NCBI GenBank assembly: GCA_024400785.1
Contig: JAKSME010000002.1
Coordinates: 9,598 to 73,597, forward strand
DNA: 64,000 bases
Direction of reading: 5' to 3'
Origin: Bacteroidales bacterium
GTDB taxonomy: Bacteria; Bacteroidota; Bacteroidia; Bacteroidales; WCHB1-69
Part shown: piece by piece, positions 5,987 to 45,406 of the stretch
How the letters are laid out: each line of letters starts with the position of its first letter
How positions within the stretch are numbered: the stretch's first letter is position 1
Position numbers and translations under genes: made by a program
Notes under the pieces: model-generated
Databases searched by the model: none
What the model saw: the letters and a program-made list of their open reading frames with translations, nothing else
Told to the model about the DNA's origin: nothing

Positions 5987-7075
5987 ATGTCGATACTTCA
6001 CCGTCTCGCTTTACAATTTCAGCCCAACATCGGGCCGACAACCATAAAAAAGCTGCTGCAGTATTATGGCAGCGAAACTGCAATTTTTGCAGAAAAAAGC
6101 AGAATTAGTCCCTTGGGGAAAAAGATTCCCCTACCCCGTCTCACCCGTGAATGTCTGACACTGGCAGAACAGGAACTTCGGCACATGGAACGCAACGGCA
6201 TCAAATTATGCTTTTGCACCGATGCGGATTTCCCCAAGCGGCTAACAGCCTGTCCTGACGCACCTTACATGTTTTATTACAAAGGAGAAAACGTCTTCAG
6301 CCACAGGAAGATGGTGGCGGTGGTGGGCACGCGCAACATTTCCTCCTACGGCAAAGACGTCACCCGCCGCATCATCGACGGTTTGGCGCAATATGACGTG
6401 TGTGTGGTGAGCGGACTGGCTCGCGGCGTAGATGCCGTGGCCCATGAGCAAGCCCTCGACAGCGGACTGAAAACAGCGGCTGTGTTGGGCTGCGGCCTCA
6501 GCACGATTTACCCTGACTGCAACGAGCGGCTCGCACATCGCATCCTCGACAGCGGAAGCGCGTTGGTTTCCGAATTTTCTTTTTTCACAAAACCCGACCG
6601 ACAGAATTTCCCGCAACGCAACCGCATCATCGCCGGAATGTCCGATGCCACCATCGTGATGGAAACCGCCAACAAGGGAGGCAGTGTCATCACCGCTTAT
6701 ATCGCGCAGTCTTACAACCGAGATGTCTTCGCCGTTCCAGGCAGCCTTTTTTCCCAAACTTCCGAAGGTTGCCACACACTGATACGGAAAAATGTCGCCG
6801 CACTTGTCACCTCCGGCAACGACATCGCCGAAATGATGGGCTGGGACCTCGAAGCCCCCTCTTCCATCCAACCCTCACTCTTCATCGAACTCTCTCCTGA
6901 CGAACAAGCCGTCACCGACCTCATCACGCAAACTCCTGATATAATGATTGACGACATCATGGTGGCCCTTCCACAATTCCCTCCTTCCAAATTAGCATCC
7001 CTCCTGCTACAGCTCGAATTGAAGGGCGTATTGCAATGCAATCCCGGTAAAAGTTACCGCTTGTCAAGACGATAA
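5987..7075 (+). CDS. dprA: DNA-processing protein DprA
   Basis: 362 aa; VAVVGTRNISSYG...VVSGLARGVDAVAHE Rossmann-like DprA core plus a C-terminal winged-helix-like tail. Confidence 0.9.
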   Translation: MSILHRLALQFQPNIGPTTIKKLLQYYGSETAIFAEKSRISPLGKKIPLPRLTRECLTLAEQELRHMERNGIKLCFCTDADFPKRLTACPDAPYMFYYKGENVFSHRKMVAVVGTRNISSYGKDVTRRIIDGLAQYDVCVVSGLARGVDAVAHEQALDSGLKTAAVLGCGLSTIYPDCNERLAHRILDSGSALVSEFSFFTKPDRQNFPQRNRIIAGMSDATIVMETANKGGSVITAYIAQSYNRDVFAVPGSLFSQTSEGCHTLIRKNVAALVTSGNDIAEMMGWDLEAPSSIQPSLFIELSPDEQAVTDLITQTPDIMIDDIMVALPQFPPSKLASLLLQLELKGVLQCNPGKSYRLSRR

Positions 7076-21987: not shown

Positions 21988-23148
21988 ATGACTGATAAAT
22001 TTGAGTCCATCCGACATTTCAACAAACGGGAGGCCATTGTTGTGCGAAGAGAAATCTTTGCAGATCCGGCTTTTGCTCATGCCTTGGAAAAACTCAACAT
22101 GGGTGTTACCGTTGAAGATTTCAAGGAACAATGCAAAACCTTCCAAACACACTATGACTTTCAAAAAGCCGTACCCGGACGTTTTCTGAAGTTCTACTCC
22201 GACAAAACCACCACCCAAGTCACTTGCCAAGGACTTGAAAACCTTGATAGAAACAAAGCTTACCTTTTCATTGCCAACCACCGCGACATCATTATGGATT
22301 CTGCTTATTTGCAGATGTATTTCTTTGATAATGATGTAAATACGTCAAAAATTGCCATTGGCGACAATTTGGTTTCCACTCCCCTCTTGCTGAACATTGC
22401 GAAGTTGAACAAAATGTTTTTGGTCAAACGCAGTGCTTCTTTGCGTGAAAAGCTCATCAATTCCAAAGAACTTTCGGAATACATCCATTACAGCATGACG
22501 GAAGAGAACGAATCGGTGTGGATTGCGCAAAGAAATGGCAGAACAAAGGATGGCATCGATATGACGCAACAAGGTTTGGTGAAGATGCTCACCTATTACG
22601 ATGATTCTCGCGAGATTCTGGATGTTTTGAAAGAGATGCACATCGTTCCACTCACCATTTCTTACGAATATGAGCCGTGCGACAATTTGAAAGCGAGAGA
22701 GTTGGCACTTTCAGAACACGAAAAATATGTGAAGAAGCCGGGTGAGGACTTCAACAGCGTATGTCAGGGGATTTTTGGCTTCAAGGGAAAAGTAAATTTC
22801 GTGATCGGCAAAGCCATCGACGACGAAATTGCCAAAATTCCAGTCGATTTGCGAAAAAATGACAAATTGACAGCAGTTTGCAAAATTATTGACGAACAAA
22901 TTTATACCAATTACAAACTTTACGAAACCAACTACATCGCTTACGATTATGTAGAAAACAGTCATGAATTTGCACAGTTTTACACAGAAGAACAAAAAGA
23001 AAAGTTTTTACAATATATTGATAAACAATCAATTACGGAAGATGTTGACGCACAAAAGATGAAGAGTTATCTACTTCAAATTTATGCCAACCCCGTAAGG
23101 ACCCATTATGGTAAAAATTTAATTAATAAAGAAGGAAACGATTGGTAA
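21988..23148 (+). CDS. PlsC-family acyltransferase (1-acyl-sn-glycerol-3-phosphate acyltransferase-like) with extra C-terminal domain
   Basis: HX4D box in FIANHRDIIMDS. ~386 aa from the ATG at 21988 (MTDKFES...). Confidence 0.7.
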   Translation: MTDKFESIRHFNKREAIVVRREIFADPAFAHALEKLNMGVTVEDFKEQCKTFQTHYDFQKAVPGRFLKFYSDKTTTQVTCQGLENLDRNKAYLFIANHRDIIMDSAYLQMYFFDNDVNTSKIAIGDNLVSTPLLLNIAKLNKMFLVKRSASLREKLINSKELSEYIHYSMTEENESVWIAQRNGRTKDGIDMTQQGLVKMLTYYDDSREILDVLKEMHIVPLTISYEYEPCDNLKARELALSEHEKYVKKPGEDFNSVCQGIFGFKGKVNFVIGKAIDDEIAKIPVDLRKNDKLTAVCKIIDEQIYTNYKLYETNYIAYDYVENSHEFAQFYTEEQKEKFLQYIDKQSITEDVDAQKMKSYLLQIYANPVRTHYGKNLINKEGNDW

Positions 23149-23149
23149 A

Positions 23150-24157
23150 ATGAATGATGTTCAACCTCCATCGGGCCATAAAATTCTCATCATACGATTC
23201 AGTTCCATCGGGGACATCGTACTCACGACTCCTGTAGTACGCGCTGTAAAACAGCAACTTCCCAATGCTGAAGTGCATTTTTTGGTCAAAAGTTCCAATG
23301 CCACATTGATGCAAAACAACCCGTACATCAACAAAGTCCACCTATGGGGAAGCGACAATTCGGATGTGGTAAAAGATTTGAAGAAAGAGCAGTTTGATTT
23401 TATCGTGGATTTGCAAAAAAACCACAAGTCGCGGAAATTGATTAACAAGTTGGGCCGTCCCCACAAATCATTTCCAAAGTGCAACATCAAAAAGGCGGTG
23501 TTAGTGGGTACGAAAATGAACTTTCTACCACAAAAACACATTGTGGAGCGTTATTTTGAAGCCGTAAAACCGCTGAATGTCACCAACGACGGCCAAGGAT
23601 TGGATTTCTTTATTCCAGAAACGGAAAAGTTTGATACTCAGAATCTTCCGGCGAGCTTTGAAAATGGTTACATCGCGGTAGCAGTCGGTGCCAAACATGC
23701 CACCAAGCGCATTCCTCCCGAAAAAATCATCGAAATCGGCAACCTGTTGTTCAAGCCAATGATTCTTTTGGGCGACAAAAACGACCTGCCAGCCGCGGAA
23801 AAGATTGTGGCCGCATTAAACGGGAAAGCGTTGAACGCCTGCGGACAATACTCCATCAACACCACTGCTTCTATAGTGGAGCAGAGCGACTGTGTGCTGA
23901 CAGCCGACACCGGTATCATGCACATAGCTGCAGCGTTGCGCAAACCGATTACTTCGTTGTGGGGAAACACGGTGCCAGAGTTGGGAATGTATCCTTACAC
24001 CGCACCGGAGGCTCCCACCGCAAGAATCTTCGAAATTCCCTATTTAAAATGCCGTCCCTGCTCCAAACTTGGCTTCGACAAATGCCCGCACCGCCATTTT
24101 AAATGCATGAACCTCATCTCCTCCTACGAAGTCGCAGATTGGATTAATCAATTCTAA
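23150..24157 (+). CDS. glycosyltransferase family 9 (heptosyltransferase-like, LPS core)
   Basis: KILIIRFSSIGDIVLTTPVVRAVK N-terminus and DTGIMHIAAAL C-terminal motif, typical of GT9. Confidence 0.8.
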   Translation: MNDVQPPSGHKILIIRFSSIGDIVLTTPVVRAVKQQLPNAEVHFLVKSSNATLMQNNPYINKVHLWGSDNSDVVKDLKKEQFDFIVDLQKNHKSRKLINKLGRPHKSFPKCNIKKAVLVGTKMNFLPQKHIVERYFEAVKPLNVTNDGQGLDFFIPETEKFDTQNLPASFENGYIAVAVGAKHATKRIPPEKIIEIGNLLFKPMILLGDKNDLPAAEKIVAALNGKALNACGQYSINTTASIVEQSDCVLTADTGIMHIAAALRKPITSLWGNTVPELGMYPYTAPEAPTARIFEIPYLKCRPCSKLGFDKCPHRHFKCMNLISSYEVADWINQF

Positions 24158-24158
24158 A

Positions 24159-25208
24159 TTGAAAAAAATACGATTAATTCTGTTATATCCACTCGGCGCC
24201 ATTTATGGTGCTATTTCATTGTTGCGCAGAATGTTATATAAAAAAAAGGTGAAAAGATTTTCACCCACTACTGTGCCAACAATTTGCATAGGAAACCTCG
24301 CAGTGGGAGGCACCGGCAAAACCCCACACACAGAATATCTTTTACGTTGGTTGAGTTCCAACCACAAAATTGCGACTTTGAGCCGCGGCTACGGAAGGAA
24401 AACACACGGCTATATAGAAGCCCACACGGAATCAACGGCTGAACAGGTGGGAGACGAACCTCTGCAAATGAAACAGAAATTTCCAGAGGTAACAGTGGCG
24501 GTTTGTGAAAAGCGAGTCATCGGATTACAGCGACTCATGAGCGGAACAAATCCTCCTGAAGTGGTTTTATTGGATGATGCCTATCAGCATTTGGCAGTTA
24601 AATGCGGTTTGCAAATTTTATTAACTGATTATGCGTCAATGTATTGTGATGATTTTCCGATGCCAGCGGGAAATTTGAGGGAATTTCGTTGCGCCGCCAG
24701 CGAAGCTGAAATCATCATCGTTACCAAATGCCCGGAAGAGCTTGGGAAGAAAGAAGCGGAAAAGATTCGCAGAAGATTGAAGGTCACTGCGGAGCAAGCG
24801 TGCTTTTTTACCACATTGCAATACGGAGAACCGAAGCCGCTCAATGCAGCCGCAGAGGGAAACACTCTATCTTCAAAAAACGACATTGTTTTTGTTTCTG
24901 GCATTGCGCATCCAGAGCACGCATATCGCTATTTAGCATCGCAATTCTCTGATGTTAAATCAGTTGAATTTAGAGACCATCACAATTTCAGTAAGTATGA
25001 AATTGAATTACTGCGCAAAAAAGTTGCAGAGAGCAAGGGTAAAAAAGTCCTCTTTTTTACAGAAAAAGATGCTGCCCGACTCAACGGGACGAAGGAGTGG
25101 GGAAAGTTGTCGGAAATTCCCGCATACAGTCTGCCGATTCAAGTGAGATTTTTGTGGGAAGAGGAGAAATTCCAAGAAATCATTGCGGGACTGTGGTCGG
25201 CGAAATAG
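24159..25208 (+). CDS. lpxK: tetraacyldisaccharide 4'-kinase
   Basis: P-loop GNLAVGGTGKTP and LSRGYGRK. TTG start 1 nt after the GT9 stop codon (coupled); no nearby ATG preserves the conserved N-terminus. Confidence 0.9.
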   Translation: MKKIRLILLYPLGAIYGAISLLRRMLYKKKVKRFSPTTVPTICIGNLAVGGTGKTPHTEYLLRWLSSNHKIATLSRGYGRKTHGYIEAHTESTAEQVGDEPLQMKQKFPEVTVAVCEKRVIGLQRLMSGTNPPEVVLLDDAYQHLAVKCGLQILLTDYASMYCDDFPMPAGNLREFRCAASEAEIIIVTKCPEELGKKEAEKIRRRLKVTAEQACFFTTLQYGEPKPLNAAAEGNTLSSKNDIVFVSGIAHPEHAYRYLASQFSDVKSVEFRDHHNFSKYEIELLRKKVAESKGKKVLFFTEKDAARLNGTKEWGKLSEIPAYSLPIQVRFLWEEEKFQEIIAGLWSAK

Positions 25209-25218
25209 CGAACAAGCT

Positions 25219-26019
25219 CTATTTCATCGTTTCGCGGCGAACGATACGGGTAAGAATGGGTGTTTTAATATTCAGCGGGGTAATTTTTGAGAAGAAGTGC
25301 CCGACTGGGTTGACTAAGATTTCGCGTTTTCCGAGCAGCGTTTCCAACACGCATTTTTTAGCGACATGCTGCGTAGATACCAAGGTCAGTTTGCCCAAAT
25401 GCCCTTGTTTTTGGATTCGCGCAATGATGTCGGGGCTTGTTGCCATGGCGCCGGGGCATACCACGCTGACTGACAATCCTTTCTTACGGTATTCGGCTCG
25501 CAAGCTCATAGAGAAATTGTAGATGAAAGCCTTGCTGGCGGGGTAAACCATTTTGTAACCGATGGGGGTGAGGGCGGCCATACTGGCAACATTCAGCACA
25601 TAACTCTTATCTTGACGTAATAAATTATCAATCAATAATTTAGTTAGTAATGTTGTAGCTTTGACGTTCAAGTCCAAAATTTTTTCCACATACTCAACCC
25701 CTACCTCTTCAAAACAGCGAGATCCGCCGATACCGGCATTGTTAATCAGAAGAAAAACCTCATACTTGCTATTGATTTCTTGTGCGGCATCGAAGAGGCT
25801 TTGTCGGTTCGTTAAATCCGCAACAATATATTGAGAATCAACATGATAAGTATTTCTCAATTCAGTACAAAATGCCGAAATTTGGTCATTTGAGCTAACT
25901 AGAATCGGGTTGATTCCGCATCGGGCGAGTTCAATGGAAAAAGACTTGCCCAGTCCGCGGCTGGCTCCGGTAACCACGGCATATTTTCCGTTAATTTTTT
26001 CCTTCAGCGATTTCAGCAT
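25219..26019 (-). CDS. SDR family oxidoreductase
   Basis: AVVTGASRGLG cofactor motif, NNAG, and catalytic YPASK. Confidence 0.85.
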   Translation of the reverse strand: MLKSLKEKINGKYAVVTGASRGLGKSFSIELARCGINPILVSSNDQISAFCTELRNTYHVDSQYIVADLTNRQSLFDAAQEINSKYEVFLLINNAGIGGSRCFEEVGVEYVEKILDLNVKATTLLTKLLIDNLLRQDKSYVLNVASMAALTPIGYKMVYPASKAFIYNFSMSLRAEYRKKGLSVSVVCPGAMATSPDIIARIQKQGHLGKLTLVSTQHVAKKCVLETLLGKREILVNPVGHFFSKITPLNIKTPILTRIVRRETMK

Positions 26020-27133
26020 GGTTTTCTATCGACTTTTTATAGCATCTTCTTCTACAGAAAGGTTCGCAGTCATAATATTTGGGCCAAATACGGTTGGCTG
26101 GGTTATCTTCCAATTGCTGGGAGGTAAAAGCGAACTCATAACCATTTTCTAAGAAGGTCTCGTTCAATTGTTTATGATAGAGGAGATGGACACCGGAGTT
26201 GGCGTATTCTGGGAGGATACCGGTGAGATACATATCCACTTTGTCGTTTTTGTGGAGGGCGCGAAGGATGGGAAGCCAACCGAACGGAAAGAGTTTTCCA
26301 TTGGCTTTTTGGAAAGCCTCGCTGAGAGAGGGCAGGCAGAAAGAAATCCCCACCAGTTTTCCATTTTCGTCTTCCAAAACAGAAATCAGATTCAGCACCG
26401 CCACCCCGAAATTACCTTTTACAACCCAGTCTATTTCCTTATCAGTCAAAGGAATAAAGTTAAAAATTTGATGGTAGCTTTTATTCAAAACTTTAAAGAA
26501 CTCTATGCCAATTTTTTTCAGTTCCTTCTTACTTTTATATTGTCTGATACTGACTTTACTTCGCTGTTCCACATGTTTTGCCATCCTTTCAATGGGTTCG
26601 GGAACGGCGAGCACTTTTACCTTATACTGGATATAATCCACTTCTTTTTCAAAGCCCCAATTTTCAACCAACTGGGGATAATAGGAAAAGTTGTAATCGG
26701 CTTCAATAGAGGAAGTTTTGTCGAAGCCATCGACGAGCATGGCCTGTTTTTGCATGTTGGAGAAGCGTGAAGGGCCGGCAATGGTATCCATGCCATTTTC
26801 TCTCCCCCATTGTTCGACCGTTTGCAGGAGCAATTTAGCAACTTCTTGATTATCAATAGTATCGAACCATCCAAAACGGATTCGTTTTTGGTTTTTCAGT
26901 TCATTGCAACGATGATTGATGATGCCCGCGATACGGCCGACGATTTCACCCTCTTGATAAGCGAGCCACATGCGCAACGAACAAAAATCCAAAGCGGGAT
27001 GACGGGTAAGGTCTTTCATCTCAGCATGATCCAACGGAGGAACAAAATGCGGAGAATCTTTGTACAATATTTTAGGGAAACGGACAAAATCCTTTAATTC
27101 TTTTTTGCTTAAAACTTCTTTAATAACAATCAT
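25991..27133 (-). CDS. putative GNAT-fold N-acyltransferase-like protein
   Basis: 380 aa. Central EIVGRIAGII...RFGWFD...GP segment resembles an acyl-CoA N-acyltransferase fold. Overlaps the downstream SDR gene by 29 nt. Assignment tentative. Confidence 0.45.
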   Translation of the reverse strand: MIVIKEVLSKKELKDFVRFPKILYKDSPHFVPPLDHAEMKDLTRHPALDFCSLRMWLAYQEGEIVGRIAGIINHRCNELKNQKRIRFGWFDTIDNQEVAKLLLQTVEQWGRENGMDTIAGPSRFSNMQKQAMLVDGFDKTSSIEADYNFSYYPQLVENWGFEKEVDYIQYKVKVLAVPEPIERMAKHVEQRSKVSIRQYKSKKELKKIGIEFFKVLNKSYHQIFNFIPLTDKEIDWVVKGNFGVAVLNLISVLEDENGKLVGISFCLPSLSEAFQKANGKLFPFGWLPILRALHKNDKVDMYLTGILPEYANSGVHLLYHKQLNETFLENGYEFAFTSQQLEDNPANRIWPKYYDCEPFCRRRCYKKSIENHAEIAEGKN

Positions 27134-27253
27134 AATGCTGCTAAAATGGCAAATTTGGGAGCAATATCTATGCCAAAAAGATGCAAAATTTTAGATAATG
27201 GCAAAAATAAGAAAAAAAAGCGAATGTCATGATTTAGTTATCACAAAAAAATG

Positions 27254-27261
27254 TATTTTTG
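27254..27261 (+). promoter_or_regulatory. -7 promoter box TATTTTTG of tRNA-Gly
   Basis: GTATTTTTGCAACCTCAA (27253-27270), 11 nt upstream of the tRNA. An identical 18-mer precedes tRNA-Glu at 45378-45395. Confidence 0.7.
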
Positions 27262-27272
27262 CAACCTCAAAA

Positions 27273-27345
27273 GCGGTAATAGCTCAGTTGGTAGAGCGGC
27301 AGCTTCCCAAGCTGCAGGTCGCGGGTTCGAGACCCGTTTACCGCT
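27273..27345 (+). tRNA. tRNA-Gly (anticodon CCC)
   Basis: Acceptor GCGGTAA/TTACCGC, D arm GCTC-AGTTGGTA-GAGC, anticodon stem GCAGC/GCTGC with loop TTCCCAA, T arm GCGGG-TTCGAGA-CCCGT, discriminator T. Confidence 0.95.
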
Positions 27346-27354
27346 CACAAAAAA

Positions 27355-27375
27355 GCCCGGGGCGTTGCCTCGGGC
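27355..27375 (+). terminator. hairpin terminator after tRNA-Gly
   Basis: GCCCGGGG-CGTTG-CCTCGGGC (8-bp stem with one G-U pair), followed by TTTACTTTT. Confidence 0.7.
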
Positions 27376-27396
27376 TTTACTTTTATCCATGCTTAA

Positions 27397-27440
27397 TTAC
27401 TTTCTCACACACTGCATGATGCTGTGCCCCAGTCCCAAAC
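27397..27440 (-). pseudogene. orphan 3' fragment (stop codon + last 13-14 codons) of an O-methyltransferase gene
   Basis: The minus strand reads ...LGLGHSIMQCVRK*, identical in protein to the C-terminus of the intact gene at 28789-29871 but with 4 synonymous differences. Homology ends at 27440 and no upstream coding sequence is attached. Confidence 0.6.
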
Positions 27441-27534
27441 TATAAATTTATATGTATCTGACTTATAAATAATTATAATAAAATCAAGTCTCAAAGTCAG
27501 GAAAAGATTTTTAGAAAACCACAATATTATTCTG

Positions 27535-27575
27535 AAAATATGAAGTGAATAATTATTCTATTCACTTCATATTTT
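27535..27575. promoter_or_regulatory. perfect 17-bp inverted repeat (candidate operator) upstream of fic
   Basis: AAAATATGAAGTGAATA (27535-27551) / TATTCACTTCATATTTT (27559-27575), 7-nt spacer. A third half-site, GTGAATAATT, recurs at 27579-27588, abutting the -7 box. Confidence 0.55.
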
Positions 27576-27590
27576 GATGTGAATAATTTG

Positions 27591-27598
27591 TATTTTTG
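27591..27598 (+). promoter_or_regulatory. -7 promoter box TATTTTTG of fic
   Basis: TTGTATTTTTGCAC, 20 nt upstream of the ATG at 27618. Confidence 0.6.
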
Positions 27599-27617
27599 CA
27601 CTTTCAAAAAAAGGACT

Positions 27618-28733
27618 ATGAGAAATATATACATTTGGCAATCTCCCGAATGGCCAAACTTCACTTGGGATGAAACTGCCATAATAGAGCCGCTAATGAA
27701 AGTCAAACATTTTCAAGGGCAACTGATTGGAATGATGACAGCCCTTGGATTAGAGGTGCAGGCAGCGACTTCATTGGATATGGTAACAGACGACATCATC
27801 AAGTCGTGTGAAATCGAGGGTATGATTCTCAACTCACAAAGTGTGCATTCTTCTGTTGCGCGACATTTGGGAATTCCAACCGAAGGTTTGCCGGAAAGTG
27901 ATCATTACACCGAAGATCTTGTGCAAATTATGATTGATGCTGTTCAGCAGAGCCAAAAGCCCATGGATGCCGAGCGTTTGTTTGTTTGGCATTCAGCCAT
28001 GTTTCCAACCGGTAGAAGCGGATTGTATAGAATAACCGTTGGTAATTGGAGGCAAGGGGGAGAACCCATGCAAGTAGTGTCTGGGGCAATGGGACATGAA
28101 GTGGTACACTACGAAGCACCTGGTTCTGAAGCTGTTCCGCAAATGATGAATGATTTTCTAAGTTGGGTGGAGAATAAAGAAATAACTATCGATCCCATAT
28201 TAAAGGCAGGGATAGCACATTTATGGTTCGTCGCCATACATCCGTTTGATGATGGCAACGGACGTCTAACCCGCATCATTACCGATATGTTGATGGCTCG
28301 TGCGGATGGCTGGTCGCACAGATTTTACAGTATGTCGAAAACCATCTGCAAAAACAAAAAAGAGTATTACGCCATATTAGAAAAGACAACAGTAGGAAAT
28401 ACCGATATTACAGAATGGTTATTATGGTTTCTTGAAACATTACTCATTTCCATAAAAGACTCCATTAAAACTTCAGAAAAAACCATTCAGAAAATGCAAT
28501 TTTGGCAAAGACATCGGAATGTGCCGATGAATGAACGACAAGTGAAAATGGTCAATATCCTTTGGGATGGTTTTGAAGGCAACCTCACCAATGCGAAATG
28601 GGCAAAAATCACCAAAACCTCTTCATCAACGGCGCTGCGTGACATCCAGGAATTGGTTTCCCTTGGTGTTCTTGATGTAGCAGAAAGTGGTGGAAGAAGC
28701 ACACATTACATTCTTTCCATCGAAGACAAATAA
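27618..28733 (+). CDS. Fic family protein (class II, with N-terminal inhibitory motif and C-terminal wHTH-like domain)
   Basis: Core motif HPFDDGNGRLTR = HxFx(D/E)GNGRxxR. Upstream SCEIEG fits (S/T)xxxE(G/N). Start moved to the ATG at 27618 (MRNIYIWQ...), downstream of the promoter box. Confidence 0.9.
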   Translation: MRNIYIWQSPEWPNFTWDETAIIEPLMKVKHFQGQLIGMMTALGLEVQAATSLDMVTDDIIKSCEIEGMILNSQSVHSSVARHLGIPTEGLPESDHYTEDLVQIMIDAVQQSQKPMDAERLFVWHSAMFPTGRSGLYRITVGNWRQGGEPMQVVSGAMGHEVVHYEAPGSEAVPQMMNDFLSWVENKEITIDPILKAGIAHLWFVAIHPFDDGNGRLTRIITDMLMARADGWSHRFYSMSKTICKNKKEYYAILEKTTVGNTDITEWLLWFLETLLISIKDSIKTSEKTIQKMQFWQRHRNVPMNERQVKMVNILWDGFEGNLTNAKWAKITKTSSSTALRDIQELVSLGVLDVAESGGRSTHYILSIEDK

Positions 28734-28734
28734 T

Positions 28735-28832
28735 CTCACAAAAAAAGCCCGAGGTGCTGCCTCGGGCTTTACTTTTATCCATGCTTAATTACTTTCTCAC
28801 ACACTGCATAATGCTGTGGCCCAAGCCCAAAC
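28735..28832. repeat. right copy of the ~97-bp direct repeat
   Basis: Begins 1 nt after the fic stop codon. Contains the hairpin and the true 3' end of the methyltransferase gene. Confidence 0.9.
28747..28767. terminator. bidirectional hairpin terminator between convergent fic and methyltransferase genes
   Basis: GCCCGAGG-TGCTG-CCTCGGGC, a perfect 8-bp stem, flanked by A7 on the left and TTTACTTTT on the right. Confidence 0.7.
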
Positions 28833-29871
28833 CGTCGTGGACGGTTTCGATTTTCAGTCCGACGCTCTCGACACAGCGGGCCATGTCATCATAATAGTAC
28901 ATTTTGCTGTTTCCGTTGGCGAGTGCGGTGAAATAGAGACTGATTTGCGCCAAGCAATAGGAAGCCGTTTCGAAACGTTGGCGGTCCCAGAAGGTTTCCA
29001 TGATGTAGAGCTTGCTGTCGACACCCATGGATTGTGCGGCGCGGCGCAGGATGCTACATACCTGTTCCTCTGAAAAACAGTCCAAAAACTGGCTCATCCA
29101 GATGGCATCGAAGCCTGTCGGGAAAGCGGTGGCTTCGTCCAACAGATTGCCACCGTAGCCGTGAATGCGGTCGGCTCCTTCCAAACCGGCGGTGGATTTG
29201 CGCATCATTTCCAACTGCTGCGGAAGGTCCATAATGGTGACATTCACCATTTTATCAAATTTTACACATTGACTGGCCCAACGACCGGTATTACCGCCCA
29301 CATCCAACAGTGTGCGCGGTTGGTTGGCAAAGACAATCTGCAGCGCCTGCTCGAAGGAATTGTCGGAATAAAAATGGTCGAAACCGAACCAACTTTTCTG
29401 CACCTGTGGCGGCAACTGCGACAAACCTTCATAAATGGTCGGCCAAGTGCCAAACACCTTCAAACCTTCCGGCTTGCCGTTCAAAATGGCCTCTTCCAAG
29501 TTAAAAAGTCCCAAATAGTTGACATCGTGGTTAAAGTCCATGTTGACGCGAGCCATGTCGTCGTGCAACAAGAACCAACCCGGCTTTGCCAGATAGAACT
29601 TATTATTTTTCAATAAAACAGTTCCGATGGTAAGTGACGATTCCAGCAGAACTTGCGTTCCGTAATGCGACAAATTGGCCTTTTGGGCCACTTCGTCCAA
29701 GGTCAAACCCTCTTTGCAATCATCCAACATTTGGAAGATGCCGAATTTAACCATCAGGCGGGAGACTTGAAAAACGACAGGGCCGAAGGCGATTTCTTGA
29801 GCCAGGCGCTGTGCCTGCAAAGCTGTAAAGCGTTCTTTAGCGTAAATTTCTTTTTGTGGAGATGATAACAT
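28789..29871 (-). CDS. class I SAM-dependent O-methyltransferase (Methyltransf_2-like with N-terminal dimerisation/wHTH domain)
   Basis: 360 aa; SAM motif LLDVGGNTGRWA; N-terminal helix-rich domain (LTLDEVAQKANLSHYGTQVLLE). Confidence 0.75.
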   Translation of the reverse strand: MLSSPQKEIYAKERFTALQAQRLAQEIAFGPVVFQVSRLMVKFGIFQMLDDCKEGLTLDEVAQKANLSHYGTQVLLESSLTIGTVLLKNNKFYLAKPGWFLLHDDMARVNMDFNHDVNYLGLFNLEEAILNGKPEGLKVFGTWPTIYEGLSQLPPQVQKSWFGFDHFYSDNSFEQALQIVFANQPRTLLDVGGNTGRWASQCVKFDKMVNVTIMDLPQQLEMMRKSTAGLEGADRIHGYGGNLLDEATAFPTGFDAIWMSQFLDCFSEEQVCSILRRAAQSMGVDSKLYIMETFWDRQRFETASYCLAQISLYFTALANGNSKMYYYDDMARCVESVGLKIETVHDGLGLGHSIMQCVRK

Positions 29872-45339: not shown

Positions 45340-45378
45340 AAAATTTTCTCAAAAGTGATTTTGTATTAAAAAAAAGTG

Positions 45379-45386
45379 TATTTTTG
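45379..45386 (+). promoter_or_regulatory. -7 promoter box TATTTTTG of tRNA-Glu
   Basis: GTATTTTTGCAACCTCAA (45378-45395), identical to the tRNA-Gly promoter 18-mer. Confidence 0.7.
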
Positions 45387-45406
45387 CAACCTCAATTTGA
45401 GAGAAC

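What the first reader, a model, noticed from the sequence alone, without database searches (positions are those of the whole stretch)
27344..28832. Fic cassette bracketed by ~97-bp diverged direct repeats that duplicate a terminator and the last 14 codons of the neighbouring methyltransferase
Seen in the sequence:
- 27344-27440 and 28735-28832 align end to end, with one extra A in an A-run plus 7 substitutions.
- Each copy consists of CTCAC + A6/A7, an 8-bp-stem hairpin (GCCCGrGG...CCTCGGGC), then on the minus strand the stop codon and the last codons ...LGLGHSIMQCVRK* of the O-methyltransferase.
- Only the right copy is joined to the intact gene (28789-29871). The left copy is an orphan fragment that begins in the last bases of tRNA-Gly.
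- Of the 7 substitutions, 4 lie in the codons and all 4 are synonymous third-position changes (ATT/ATC, GGC/GGG, TTG/CTG, GGC/GGA). One converts an A-U stem pair into G-U, and 2 are in the hairpin loop.

Inference:
- Only roughly a quarter of random substitutions are synonymous, so this pattern suggests both copies diverged while under purifying selection, meaning in different genomes.
- The 1,294-bp unique segment (AT-rich leader + fic) was therefore probably imported together with a foreign copy of the target site.
- This resembles att-flanked, recombinase-less cis-mobilisable elements (CIMEs) or the remnant of a larger tRNA-adjacent island.
- No integrase or transposase is present in the window.
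Basis: partly seen in the sequence, partly recalled or inferred. Interest (0 to 1): 0.62.

Follow-up and report, generated by a model that had tools for sequence, protein, structure and literature searches.

The report
Strain-specific fic insertion carrying foreign target copy
A 1.4-kb piece of DNA carrying a fic gene was inserted into the tail of a methyltransferase gene in this gut Bacteroidales strain, bringing a related lineage's copy of that tail and its terminator; the event is real and has a matching empty site, but it looks like a one-off recombination accident, not a new kind of mobile element.

Summary
27344-27440 and 28735-28832 are the only two copies of a 97/98-nt repeat in the window. 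They differ by 7 substitutions and 1 A-run indel, and all 4 coding differences are synonymous.

The decisive evidence is an empty site. A conspecific strain (L091, 99.75% identical in the left flank) runs tRNA-Gly / single repeat / methyltransferase with no fic. Its single copy is 100% identical to the left repeat. The left copy is therefore the resident sequence. Window 27441-28832 (1,392 bp) is an insertion that brought a roughly 8%-diverged copy of the terminator and the last 14 codons.

Two points argue against an att-flanked mobile element:
- A sister lineage (4 samples) has fic at the same place without the left repeat, so fic is an old, patchy tenant of this locus.
- No recombinase, conserved ends or recurrence was found, and the exchange point lies at or beyond the repeat's right edge, not in its 51-nt identical block.

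The best reading is a single homology-assisted illegitimate recombination (HFIR-like) with DNA from an unsampled related lineage. The CIME and tRNA-island readings are not. Interest is modest.

The parts
27273..27346 (+). tRNA-Gly(CCC). It is 100% conserved in all related lineages. Its last 3 bases are the first bases of the left repeat.
   Evidence: ARAGORN; BLAST.
27344..27440 (.). Left repeat. This is the resident, now orphaned, copy of CTCAC-A6, the bidirectional terminator hairpin (27352-27378), and the stop codon plus last 13 codons and 2 nt of the methyltransferase (minus strand, 27397-27440).
   Evidence: 100% identical to the single copy in the conspecific empty site L091; translation; hairpin.
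27441..27539 (+). Left end of the insert: 99 nt of AT-rich DNA that starts with the palindrome TATAAATTTATA. It has no counterpart in the sister lineage and no other copy anywhere searched. The junction 27440/27441 is the non-homologous joint.
27540..27617 (+). fic leader, shared with the sister lineage at about 90% identity. It holds an inverted repeat GAAGTGAATA-N7-TATTCACTTC (27542-27568), a candidate operator, and a Bacteroidetes-type promoter motif TTTG...TAttTTTG (about 27578-27598).
   Evidence: (I1, I7, D3, D13). The promoter consensus is from general knowledge.
27618..28733 (+). fic gene: a class II Fic AMP-transferase of 371 aa. It has DUF4172 with the inhibitory motif SCEIEG, the active-site motif HPFDDGNGRLTR, and a C-terminal winged helix.
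   Evidence: Pfam; full-length match to PDB 8CIL CbFic2, E = 3e-87; PMC10628234.
28735..28832 (.). Right repeat. This is the imported copy of CTCAC-A7, the terminator hairpin (28744-28770), and the stop codon plus last 14 codons. It now serves as the working 3' end and terminator of the methyltransferase.
   Evidence: 8 differences from the resident allele; 7 and 10 from lineages T and S; terminator scan on both strands.
28833..28849 (-). Probable extension of the donor tract past the repeat. The single strain difference at 28849 (window G, empty-site strain A) is synonymous. The stretch overlaps the palindrome AAACCGTC-GTG-GACGGTTT (28829-28847).
   Evidence: From 28850 to 29248 the two strains are identical.
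28789..29871 (-). O-methyltransferase of 360 aa, the target gene. It stays intact because the insert supplies a synonymous replacement 3' end.

Best explanation
The window strain descends from a fic-less ancestor with the layout p380 <- tRNA-Gly -> shared bidirectional terminator <- methyltransferase. A conspecific strain still has that layout.

A 1,392-bp stretch (27441-28832, probably with donor sequence to 28849) from an unsampled related lineage was inserted 14 codons before the end of the methyltransferase gene. In that donor lineage fic lies directly downstream of, and convergent with, the same methyltransferase. The insert comprises 99 nt of AT-rich DNA, the fic promoter leader, fic, and the donor's terminator plus last 14 codons.

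Because the insert carries its own synonymous copy of the gene's tail and terminator, the methyltransferase stays intact. The resident tail and terminator remain as an orphan that still sits behind tRNA-Gly.

Inferred mechanism, not shown: a single homology-assisted illegitimate recombination, or break repair. The right end was resolved by homologous pairing in the methyltransferase 3' end, and the left end was joined non-homologously at 27440/27441. No dedicated recombinase was involved. This is HFIR-like displacement, as proposed for Rhs and T6SS effector arrays.

The 97-bp repeats are therefore a by-product of co-imported donor flank, not att sites.
For: Shown directly:
- Empty site. L091 is 99.75% identical to 22981-27440, then continues straight into 28833 and beyond. 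Its single copy equals the left repeat at 97 of 97 positions.
- The occupied arrangement was found independently. Logan unitigs L081 (27388-28787) and L092 (24855-27395) from SRR17543909 are 100% identical to the window and include the orphan/AT-rich junction.
- The right repeat is a distinct functional allele. All 4 coding differences are synonymous, p = 0.002-0.006. The four lineage alleles are about equidistant, at 7-11 differences.
- The donor configuration (fic-TAAT-CTCAC-A7-hairpin-methyltransferase) exists in the sister lineage in 4 samples.
- fic is as diverged from the sister lineage's fic as the core genes are.
- Divergence between the window and the empty-site strain drops from 8% to 0% within about 25 nt of the repeat's right end.

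Supporting the one-off reading:
- No integrase or transposase in the 64-kb window.
- No orphan fragment in 91 other methyltransferase loci.
- No second copy of the insert's left end in the window, the fetched loci or the viral contigs, and no closely similar DNA in plasmid or phage records beyond the short conserved Fic-motif stretch in unrelated plasmids.
- The sister lineage's cassette has different sequences at both ends.
- The difference at 28849 lies 17 nt beyond the repeat. It falls within a 17-nt stretch where about 0.04 SNPs are expected at the background rate of 0.25%. This suggests the donor tract overshoots the orphan's end, which a conservative site-specific exchange would not produce.
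- An 8%-diverged 63-nt patch at 29249-29311, unique to the window strain, could be a second donor patch of a mosaic homologous exchange.

Precedents: HFIR-type displacement that leaves orphans (PMC5361080), and duplications of 109-950 bp flanking inserts after conjugation (PMC3240628).
Against: - The donor itself was not found, so the sequence to the left of TATAAAT in the donor, and any microhomology at the joint, are unknown.
- Under simple HFIR the illegitimate joint (recipient position 97) and the homologous exchange point (position 91 to about 115) need not coincide, yet they do. That fits a single-site insertion, which could be a double-strand break or a site-specific event.
- A second fic+/fic- pair (lineages S and T) shows its high-divergence tract ending at the same place, 28849. 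This hints at a preferred exchange site.
- The 28849 difference and the 29249-29311 patch could be unrelated polymorphisms.
- Only the 64-kb window was screened for recombinases, not the whole genome.
- The window is from a MAG. Linkage across the 51-nt identical block rests on the original assembly.
Confidence: 0.55

Rival explanations
1. The insert is a recombinase-less integrative cassette (CIME-like or satellite). In its circular form it is 1,392 bp long and carries an attP that includes a replacement 3' end of its target gene. A tyrosine or serine recombinase encoded elsewhere integrates and excises it at a core near CCCAAAC, or at the adjacent palindrome at 28829-28847.
For: - The direct repeats bracket a single-gene unit, and an exact empty site exists.
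- Exchange is confined to the last 7 nt of the repeat, as expected for a fixed crossover point.
- The insert restores the target ORF, which is the usual logic of elements that integrate into 3' ends.
- In the S/T lineage pair the divergent tract ends at the same position, 28849.
- A prophage with a tyrosine integrase sits at the same tRNA-Gly in lineage L098, so recombinases do act at this locus.
Against: - There is no recombinase in the window.
- There is no symmetry or similarity between the sequences flanking the putative core in attB (CGTCGTGG) and attP (TATAAATT), as read from the sequence.
- The site does not recur in 91 other loci.
- The sister lineage's fic has no left methyltransferase fragment and has different end sequences, so there is no conserved element boundary.
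- The 28849 difference lies outside the orphan's extent.
- The homology runs past the stop codon through the whole intergenic region up to the tRNA end. That looks like donor chromosomal flank and not a minimal attP.
Confidence: 0.18
2. Campbell-type single crossover. A small circular DNA derived from the donor chromosome (fic plus about 97-115 bp of methyltransferase tail) integrated by RecA-dependent recombination within the short homology, which duplicated that homology.
For: - The structure, with the homology duplicated on both sides of the insert, is exactly the single-crossover product.
- Such events with duplications of 109-950 bp dominated over true HFIR in E. coli conjugation experiments (PMC3240628).
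- A Holliday junction could migrate to the heterology border and be resolved there.
Against: - A crossover inside the 97 bp, most likely in the 51-nt identical block, would give hybrid repeats. Instead the left copy is purely resident type and the right copy purely donor type at all 8 diagnostic sites.
- That leaves at most 7 nt of homology on one side of the exchange.
- There is no evidence for a vehicle. No closely similar DNA was found in plasmid or phage records.
Confidence: 0.15
3. The fic-bearing arrangement is the older state in this species, and the empty site in L091 arose from it by deletion or excision. On this reading the cassette was lost, not gained.
For: - fic is present at this locus in the sister lineage and is as diverged as the core genes, so fic is old at the locus in this group.
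- Direct repeats promote deletion.
Against: - Homologous deletion between the repeats should usually cross over in the 51-nt identical block and leave a hybrid copy. L091's copy is purely left-type.
- Even under this reading, the 8%-diverged right repeat next to a 99-100% conspecific methyltransferase body still requires an earlier import into an L-type background. This rival therefore changes only the order of events, not the origin.
Confidence: 0.07
4. The repeat arrangement is an artefact: a chimeric metagenome assembly that joins an empty-site strain to a fic-bearing strain, or an in-situ tandem duplication that later diverged.
For: - The window comes from a MAG (GCA_024500545.1).
- A 51-nt identical block is ambiguous for short k-mers.
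Against: - The orphan fragment joined to the AT-rich DNA lies inside a single 100%-identical unitig from an independent Logan assembly (L081).
- The left copy matches a real empty-site allele over both of its halves.
- In-situ divergence would need 8 changes in the functional copy and none in the orphan, while the strains differ by only 0.25%.
Confidence: 0.03

Closest known systems
Homology-facilitated illegitimate recombination and 'displacement' arrays (Rhs C-terminal displacement, T6SS effector-immunity arrays, orphan CDI modules)
   Same: - Incoming DNA carries a conserved stretch that pairs with the resident gene, plus new non-homologous cargo.
- The incoming copy takes over as the working gene end, and the resident end is pushed aside as an orphan.
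- No dedicated recombinase is involved (PMC5361080).
   Different: - Here the anchor is the last roughly 14-20 codons plus the terminator of a housekeeping-type methyltransferase.
- The cargo is a convergent stand-alone fic gene, not a toxin tip fused to the anchor gene.
- Only one displacement is seen, not an array.
- The illegitimate joint and the exchange point almost coincide.
CIMEs (cis-mobilizable elements) and other integrase-less att-flanked islands
   Same: [quoted passage not shown] The definition is in PMC5704250.
   Different: - There are no decayed ICE or IME genes.
- No integrase-bearing relative uses this site.
- The repeats are 8% diverged over 97 nt, and exchange is at or beyond their edge.
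- The relatives' fic cassettes lack the left repeat.
Campbell-type single-crossover integration of small circles with short homology
   Same: The short homologous segment (about 100 bp) is duplicated on both sides of the insert. This was seen experimentally with duplications of 109-950 bp (PMC3240628).
   Different: The repeats are not hybrids, and no circular vehicle is known.
Class II Fic AMP-transferases with DUF4172 and a C-terminal wHTH (CbFic2, SoFic, CccR)
   Same: - The architecture and motifs match over the full length, with E = 3e-87 to PDB 8CIL.
- An inverted repeat sits over the promoter, which fits the autorepression reported for CccR (PMC10628234).
   Different: The target and role in this Bacteroidales organism are unknown, and DNA binding and autoregulation were not tested. 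This comparison concerns the cargo, not the insertion mechanism.

Membership tests
CIME / att-flanked integrase-less integrative element | [quoted passage not shown] | tested here: met
   The 97/98-nt repeats bracket the unit, and the right one is the working 3' end of the methyltransferase. Whether they function as att sites is a separate feature, tested in the next rows.
CIME / att-flanked integrase-less integrative element | Derived from an ICE or IME: decayed integration or transfer genes, or an intact relative with an integrase using the same att site | tested here: not met
   - The insert holds only fic.
- None of 91 other methyltransferase loci has an element or an orphan at this site.
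- The prophage integrase in L098 joins at the tRNA end (CTCAC), not at the methyltransferase site.
CIME / att-flanked integrase-less integrative element | Conserved element ends across independent insertions | tested here: not met
   The sister lineage's fic unit has a different left end (its own terminator plus a 77-nt spacer) and only a 14-nt repeat. The AT-rich left end is unique.
CIME / att-flanked integrase-less integrative element | Site-specific excision to a circle, with restoration of attB, by a recombinase acting in trans | not testable with these tools
   This needs reads or PCR. The exact empty site in L091 is compatible with excision but equally compatible with never having been occupied.
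Homology-facilitated illegitimate recombination (HFIR-type import) | One end lies in a homologous anchor, with donor-type polymorphisms giving way to recipient-type sequence | tested here: met
   There are 8 donor-type sites in 28740-28825 and possibly one more at 28849. The sequence is then identical to the conspecific strain up to 29248.
Homology-facilitated illegitimate recombination (HFIR-type import) | The other end is joined at a non-homologous point, with 0-10 nt of microhomology | tested here: inconclusive
   The abrupt joint at 27440/27441 is seen. Microhomology cannot be scored because the donor sequence to the left of 27441 was not found.
Homology-facilitated illegitimate recombination (HFIR-type import) | A donor lineage in which cargo and anchor are contiguous | tested here: met
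   The fic-TAAT-CTCAC-A7-hairpin-methyltransferase layout is contiguous in the sister lineage in 4 samples. The actual donor is a further, unsampled lineage.
Campbell single crossover | Hybrid repeats, with the crossover inside the shared homology | tested here: not met
   The left copy is 8/8 resident type and the right copy 8/8 donor type.
Fic/DOC family, class II (cargo gene) | Fic motif HxFx(D/E)GNGRxxR, and the inhibitory helix motif (S/T)xxxE(G/N) N-terminal to it | tested here: met
   HPFDDGNGRLTR and SCEIEG are both in the translation. Pfam finds DUF4172 and Fic above their cut-offs. PDB 8CIL matches at E = 3e-87 over residues 5-365.

The most novel reading that the evidence does not exclude
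The fic unit is a minimal, recombinase-less integrative cassette that carries a spare 3' end and terminator of its target gene. A chromosomal or phage recombinase moves it in trans, with a preferred exchange site at the palindromic stretch 28826-28849 of the methyltransferase gene. The hint is that two independent fic+/fic- lineage pairs (window against L091, and S against T) both switch from high to low divergence at position 28849.
Probability: 0.12. Interest if true: 0.6.

Novelty: new member of a known kind. Interest (0 to 1): 0.3.

Why it matters
This is a clean natural example, with the empty site in hand, of how a single accessory gene can be re-acquired across a species-level boundary without any mobile-element machinery. 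The incoming DNA brings its own copy of the neighbour's gene end and terminator. Neither the methyltransferase nor the tRNA loses its terminator, and the old copy is left behind as a dated scar.

Such scars can be used to recognise homology-assisted illegitimate recombination in uncultured gut Bacteroidales, where experimental data on this process are lacking. The case also warns against reading every pair of direct repeats next to a tRNA as att sites. It does not open a new mechanism unless the site-specific reading turns out to be true.

Tried and rejected
- **GTDB species representatives.** 80 methyltransferase loci, best 91% aa identity, none with fic or tRNA-Gly directly downstream. They were too distant to serve as an empty site.
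- **Exact look-up of the window methyltransferase.** Not on record.
- **Other methyltransferase clusters at 86-92% identity.** They have different downstream genes.
- **The 1,400-nt unitig L081.** I considered it as evidence for a circle and rejected this. Its ends are exactly where 31-mers become shared between the repeats.
- **Searches for the AT-rich left end.** Nothing in the window or the fetched loci at low stringency, nothing in viral contigs, and in plasmid and phage records only the Fic motif region matched in unrelated plasmids.
- **Flanking repeats around a 69% Fic homologue in another context (L083).** None found.
- **The 14-nt CTCACAAAAAAAGC repeat in the sister lineage as an att core.** I weakened this reading because a similar A7GCGT string also occurs in the tRNA promoter region.
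- **The last look-up (SDR protein).** It returned contigs that stop before the tRNA.
- **In-situ duplication followed by divergence.** Rejected, because the orphan is identical to the conspecific allele.
Full report
**1. The observation**

The region reads, left to right:
- an uncharacterised 380-aa gene (p380; minus strand, 25991-27133);
- tRNA-Gly(CCC), 27273-27346;
- the left repeat, 27344-27440;
- 177 nt of AT-rich leader;
- a fic gene, 27618-28733;
- the right repeat, 28735-28832;
- a 360-aa O-methyltransferase on the minus strand, 28789-29871.

This layout rests.

The two repeats align end to end with 7 substitutions and one extra A. They are the only copies in the window, against 0 expected in shuffles. 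Each holds a strong hairpin that scores as a terminator. The right copy scores on both strands. On the minus strand each copy holds the stop codon and ...LGLGHSIMQCVRK. The four coding differences are all synonymous, with p = 0.002-0.006 for random changes.

TTG/CTG is a first-position change. On the methyltransferase's own strand the stem difference is a C.A mismatch in the left copy.

**2. The empty site**

The p380 protein is encoded, residue for residue, on a Logan contig from another sample (L091, SRR21151006).
- In window orientation L091 is 99.75% identical to 22981-27440 (11 mismatches in 4,460 nt). It then runs without interruption from ...CCCAAAC into CGTCGTGG..., which is window 28833 onward.
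- It therefore has tRNA-Gly, one repeat copy and the methyltransferase, with no fic.
- Its single copy is identical to the left repeat at all 97 positions and differs from the right repeat at all 8 diagnostic positions.
- To the right of the repeat the two strains differ only at 28849, and then not again until 29249.

The left repeat is therefore the resident sequence of this species. Window 27441-28832 (1,392 bp) is an insertion whose last 98 nt are a foreign, roughly 8%-diverged version of the resident terminator and gene tail.

The occupied arrangement is not peculiar to one assembly. Two Logan unitigs from SRR17543909 match the window at 100%. One of them (L081, 27388-28787) contains the joint between the orphan fragment and the AT-rich DNA. 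The ends of these unitigs fall exactly where 31-mers become shared between the repeats, so they say nothing about circles.

The window's genome is a MAG, GCA_024500545.1, labelled 'Bacteroidales bacterium'.

**3. Where the insert came from**

A sister lineage S is about 91% identical to the window. It was seen in four samples (L082, L093, L094, L095) and has fic at the same place.
- To the right of fic the layout is the same as in the window: TAAT, CTCAC-A7, hairpin, methyltransferase.
- To the left there is no methyltransferase fragment. The tRNA is followed by CTCAC-A7-GC, a different hairpin terminator and a 77-nt spacer. Homology to the window's leader starts only at 27540.
- The window's fic is 92.7-93.3% identical to the fic of lineage S. 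That matches the methyltransferase (92.1%), the aminotransferase (92%) and rfbA (91%).

A third lineage T (L097) is another empty site.

The four alleles of the 97-bp segment are the resident one, the imported one, S and T. They are roughly equidistant at 7-11 differences, and every variable coding site is synonymous.

The donor was therefore a fourth, unsampled lineage of the same group, one that has fic next to the methyltransferase. fic is an old but patchily distributed occupant of this intergenic region, not a recent arrival from far away.

**4. Mechanism**

The resident copy is untouched and the imported copy is donor-type throughout. The exchange therefore lies in the last 7 nt of the repeat (CCCAAAC) or to its right, not in the 51-nt identical block. 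This argues against an ordinary RecA crossover within the repeat, whether as Campbell integration or as deletion. Either would usually give hybrid copies.

It is compatible with two readings:
- a single-site insertion in which the right end is resolved by homology and the left end is joined illegitimately at 27440/27441 (HFIR-like, or break repair templated by foreign DNA);
- a site-specific exchange at a fixed core.

- The 50 ORFs of at least 150 aa in the window include no integrase or transposase.
- The sequences on the far side of the putative core in the reconstructed attB and attP are unrelated.
- None of 91 other methyltransferase loci carries an orphan 3' fragment.
- The insert's AT-rich left end has no other copy in the window, in about 100 fetched loci or in viral contigs. 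Plasmid and phage records hold no closely similar DNA; only the short conserved Fic-motif stretch matches in unrelated plasmids.
- The fic unit of lineage S has different sequences at both ends, so there is no conserved element boundary.
- The only strain difference near the joint, 28849, lies 17 nt beyond the end of the orphan. At the background rate of 0.25% a SNP there is unlikely (about 4%). If it is donor-derived, the donor tract overshoots the orphan, which a conservative reciprocal exchange cannot do.
- A 63-nt patch with 5 differences (8%) at 29249-29311 is unique to the window strain. It may be a second donor patch, as in mosaic homologous exchange.

Precedents exist. HFIR-type displacement that leaves orphaned gene ends has been proposed for T6SS effector arrays and Rhs loci (PMC5361080). 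Short duplications flanking inserts were the commonest outcome in E. coli conjugation experiments (PMC3240628).

**5. What keeps the site-specific reading alive**

- The near coincidence of the illegitimate joint and the homologous exchange point is not predicted by simple HFIR. A double-strand break at that point would explain it.
- In the S/T pair the methyltransferase body is 98% identical. Even so, there are 14 differences between 28756 and 28849 and none for the next 99 nt. That is the same right boundary as in the window strain.
- The stretch contains a palindrome, AAACCGTC-GTG-GACGGTTT (28829-28847).
- A prophage with a tyrosine integrase abuts the same tRNA-Gly in a more distant lineage (L098). 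Its junction is at the tRNA end, however, not in the methyltransferase.

I put this reading at about 0.18 and list the tests that would decide it.

**6. Consequences of the insertion**

- The methyltransferase keeps an intact ORF and a perfect terminator from the donor.
- tRNA-Gly keeps the resident hairpin behind it.
- fic brings its own Bacteroidetes-type promoter and an inverted repeat over it (27542-27568).
- No gene is damaged, which is probably why this rare product survived.

The cargo is a class II Fic AMP-transferase with the CbFic2/SoFic/CccR architecture.

**7. Verdict**

The inference that the fic segment was imported with a foreign copy of the target is supported by a real empty site. 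The CIME and tRNA-island interpretations are not supported.

This is a new instance of a known kind of event. It is tidy and well documented, but it is not a new system.

Noticed in passing
L098:4546-5890 (Logan SRR9184936): In a more distant lineage (p380 82% aa identity) a prophage abuts the same tRNA-Gly(CCC). It has a tyrosine integrase (PF00589) and phage lysis and structural genes. Homology to the window stops right after CTCAC, so this tRNA is a genuine integration site in the group.
   Followed up: partly
L082:701-714 and 1976-1989 (the same in L093, L094, L095): In the sister lineage the fic unit (spacing 1,275 bp) is bracketed by a 14-nt direct repeat, CTCACAAAAAAAGC. One copy sits at the tRNA end and one right after the fic stop. 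It could mark the original insertion, or a deletion that made the empty sites. Similar A7GC strings occur nearby, so chance is not excluded.
   Followed up: partly
window 28756-28849, in the alignment of L097 (T) against L093/L095 (S): Lineages T (no fic) and S (with fic) are 98% identical in the methyltransferase body. They nevertheless differ at 14 sites in the last 20 codons plus the terminator, and all of the coding differences are synonymous. The divergent tract ends at 28849, the same boundary as in the window strain.
   Followed up: partly
window 29249-29311: A cluster of 5 differences in 63 nt (8%, two amino-acid changes) separates the window strain from the empty-site strain. The window's states are also absent from lineages S and T. 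This is a small recombination patch of unknown origin.
   Followed up: partly
window 27542-27568: A perfect 10-nt inverted repeat, GAAGTGAATA-N7-TATTCACTTC, overlaps the -33 region of the fic promoter. It is kept, with 2 changes, in the sister lineage. It is a candidate operator for the Fic protein's own C-terminal wHTH, as reported for CccR.
   Followed up: no
window 27441-27452 and 28829-28847: Palindromes sit at both edges of the event. TATAAATTTATA forms the first 12 nt of the insert. AAACCGTC-GTG-GACGGTTT straddles the right repeat's end. In lineages S and T the G:C pair of that stem is A:T on both sides.
   Followed up: no
window 27245-27272, 27582-27609 and 45356-45395: Shared promoter-like strings (GTATTTTTGCA..CTCAAAA, of the Bacteroidetes TAnnTTTG type) lie upstream of tRNA-Gly, fic and tRNA-Glu.
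   Followed up: no
window 25991-27133 (minus strand): The 380-aa neighbour gene has no Pfam hit, but it is conserved across Bacteroidales. Some homologues carry a GNAT domain hit (PF00583) or the name N-acetyltransferase. Its start overlaps the end of the SDR gene by 29 nt.
   Followed up: no
L097 against L093/L095, either side of the tRNA-Gly: Lineages S and T are 87-88% identical to the left of the tRNA but 95-98% identical to the right. The tRNA-Gly/methyltransferase junction is therefore a boundary between segments with different histories.
   Followed up: no
window 5987-7075: A DprA (DNA-processing protein A) gene is present. It is compatible with uptake and recombination of foreign single-stranded DNA, but the gene is widespread and is not evidence of competence.
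   Followed up: no
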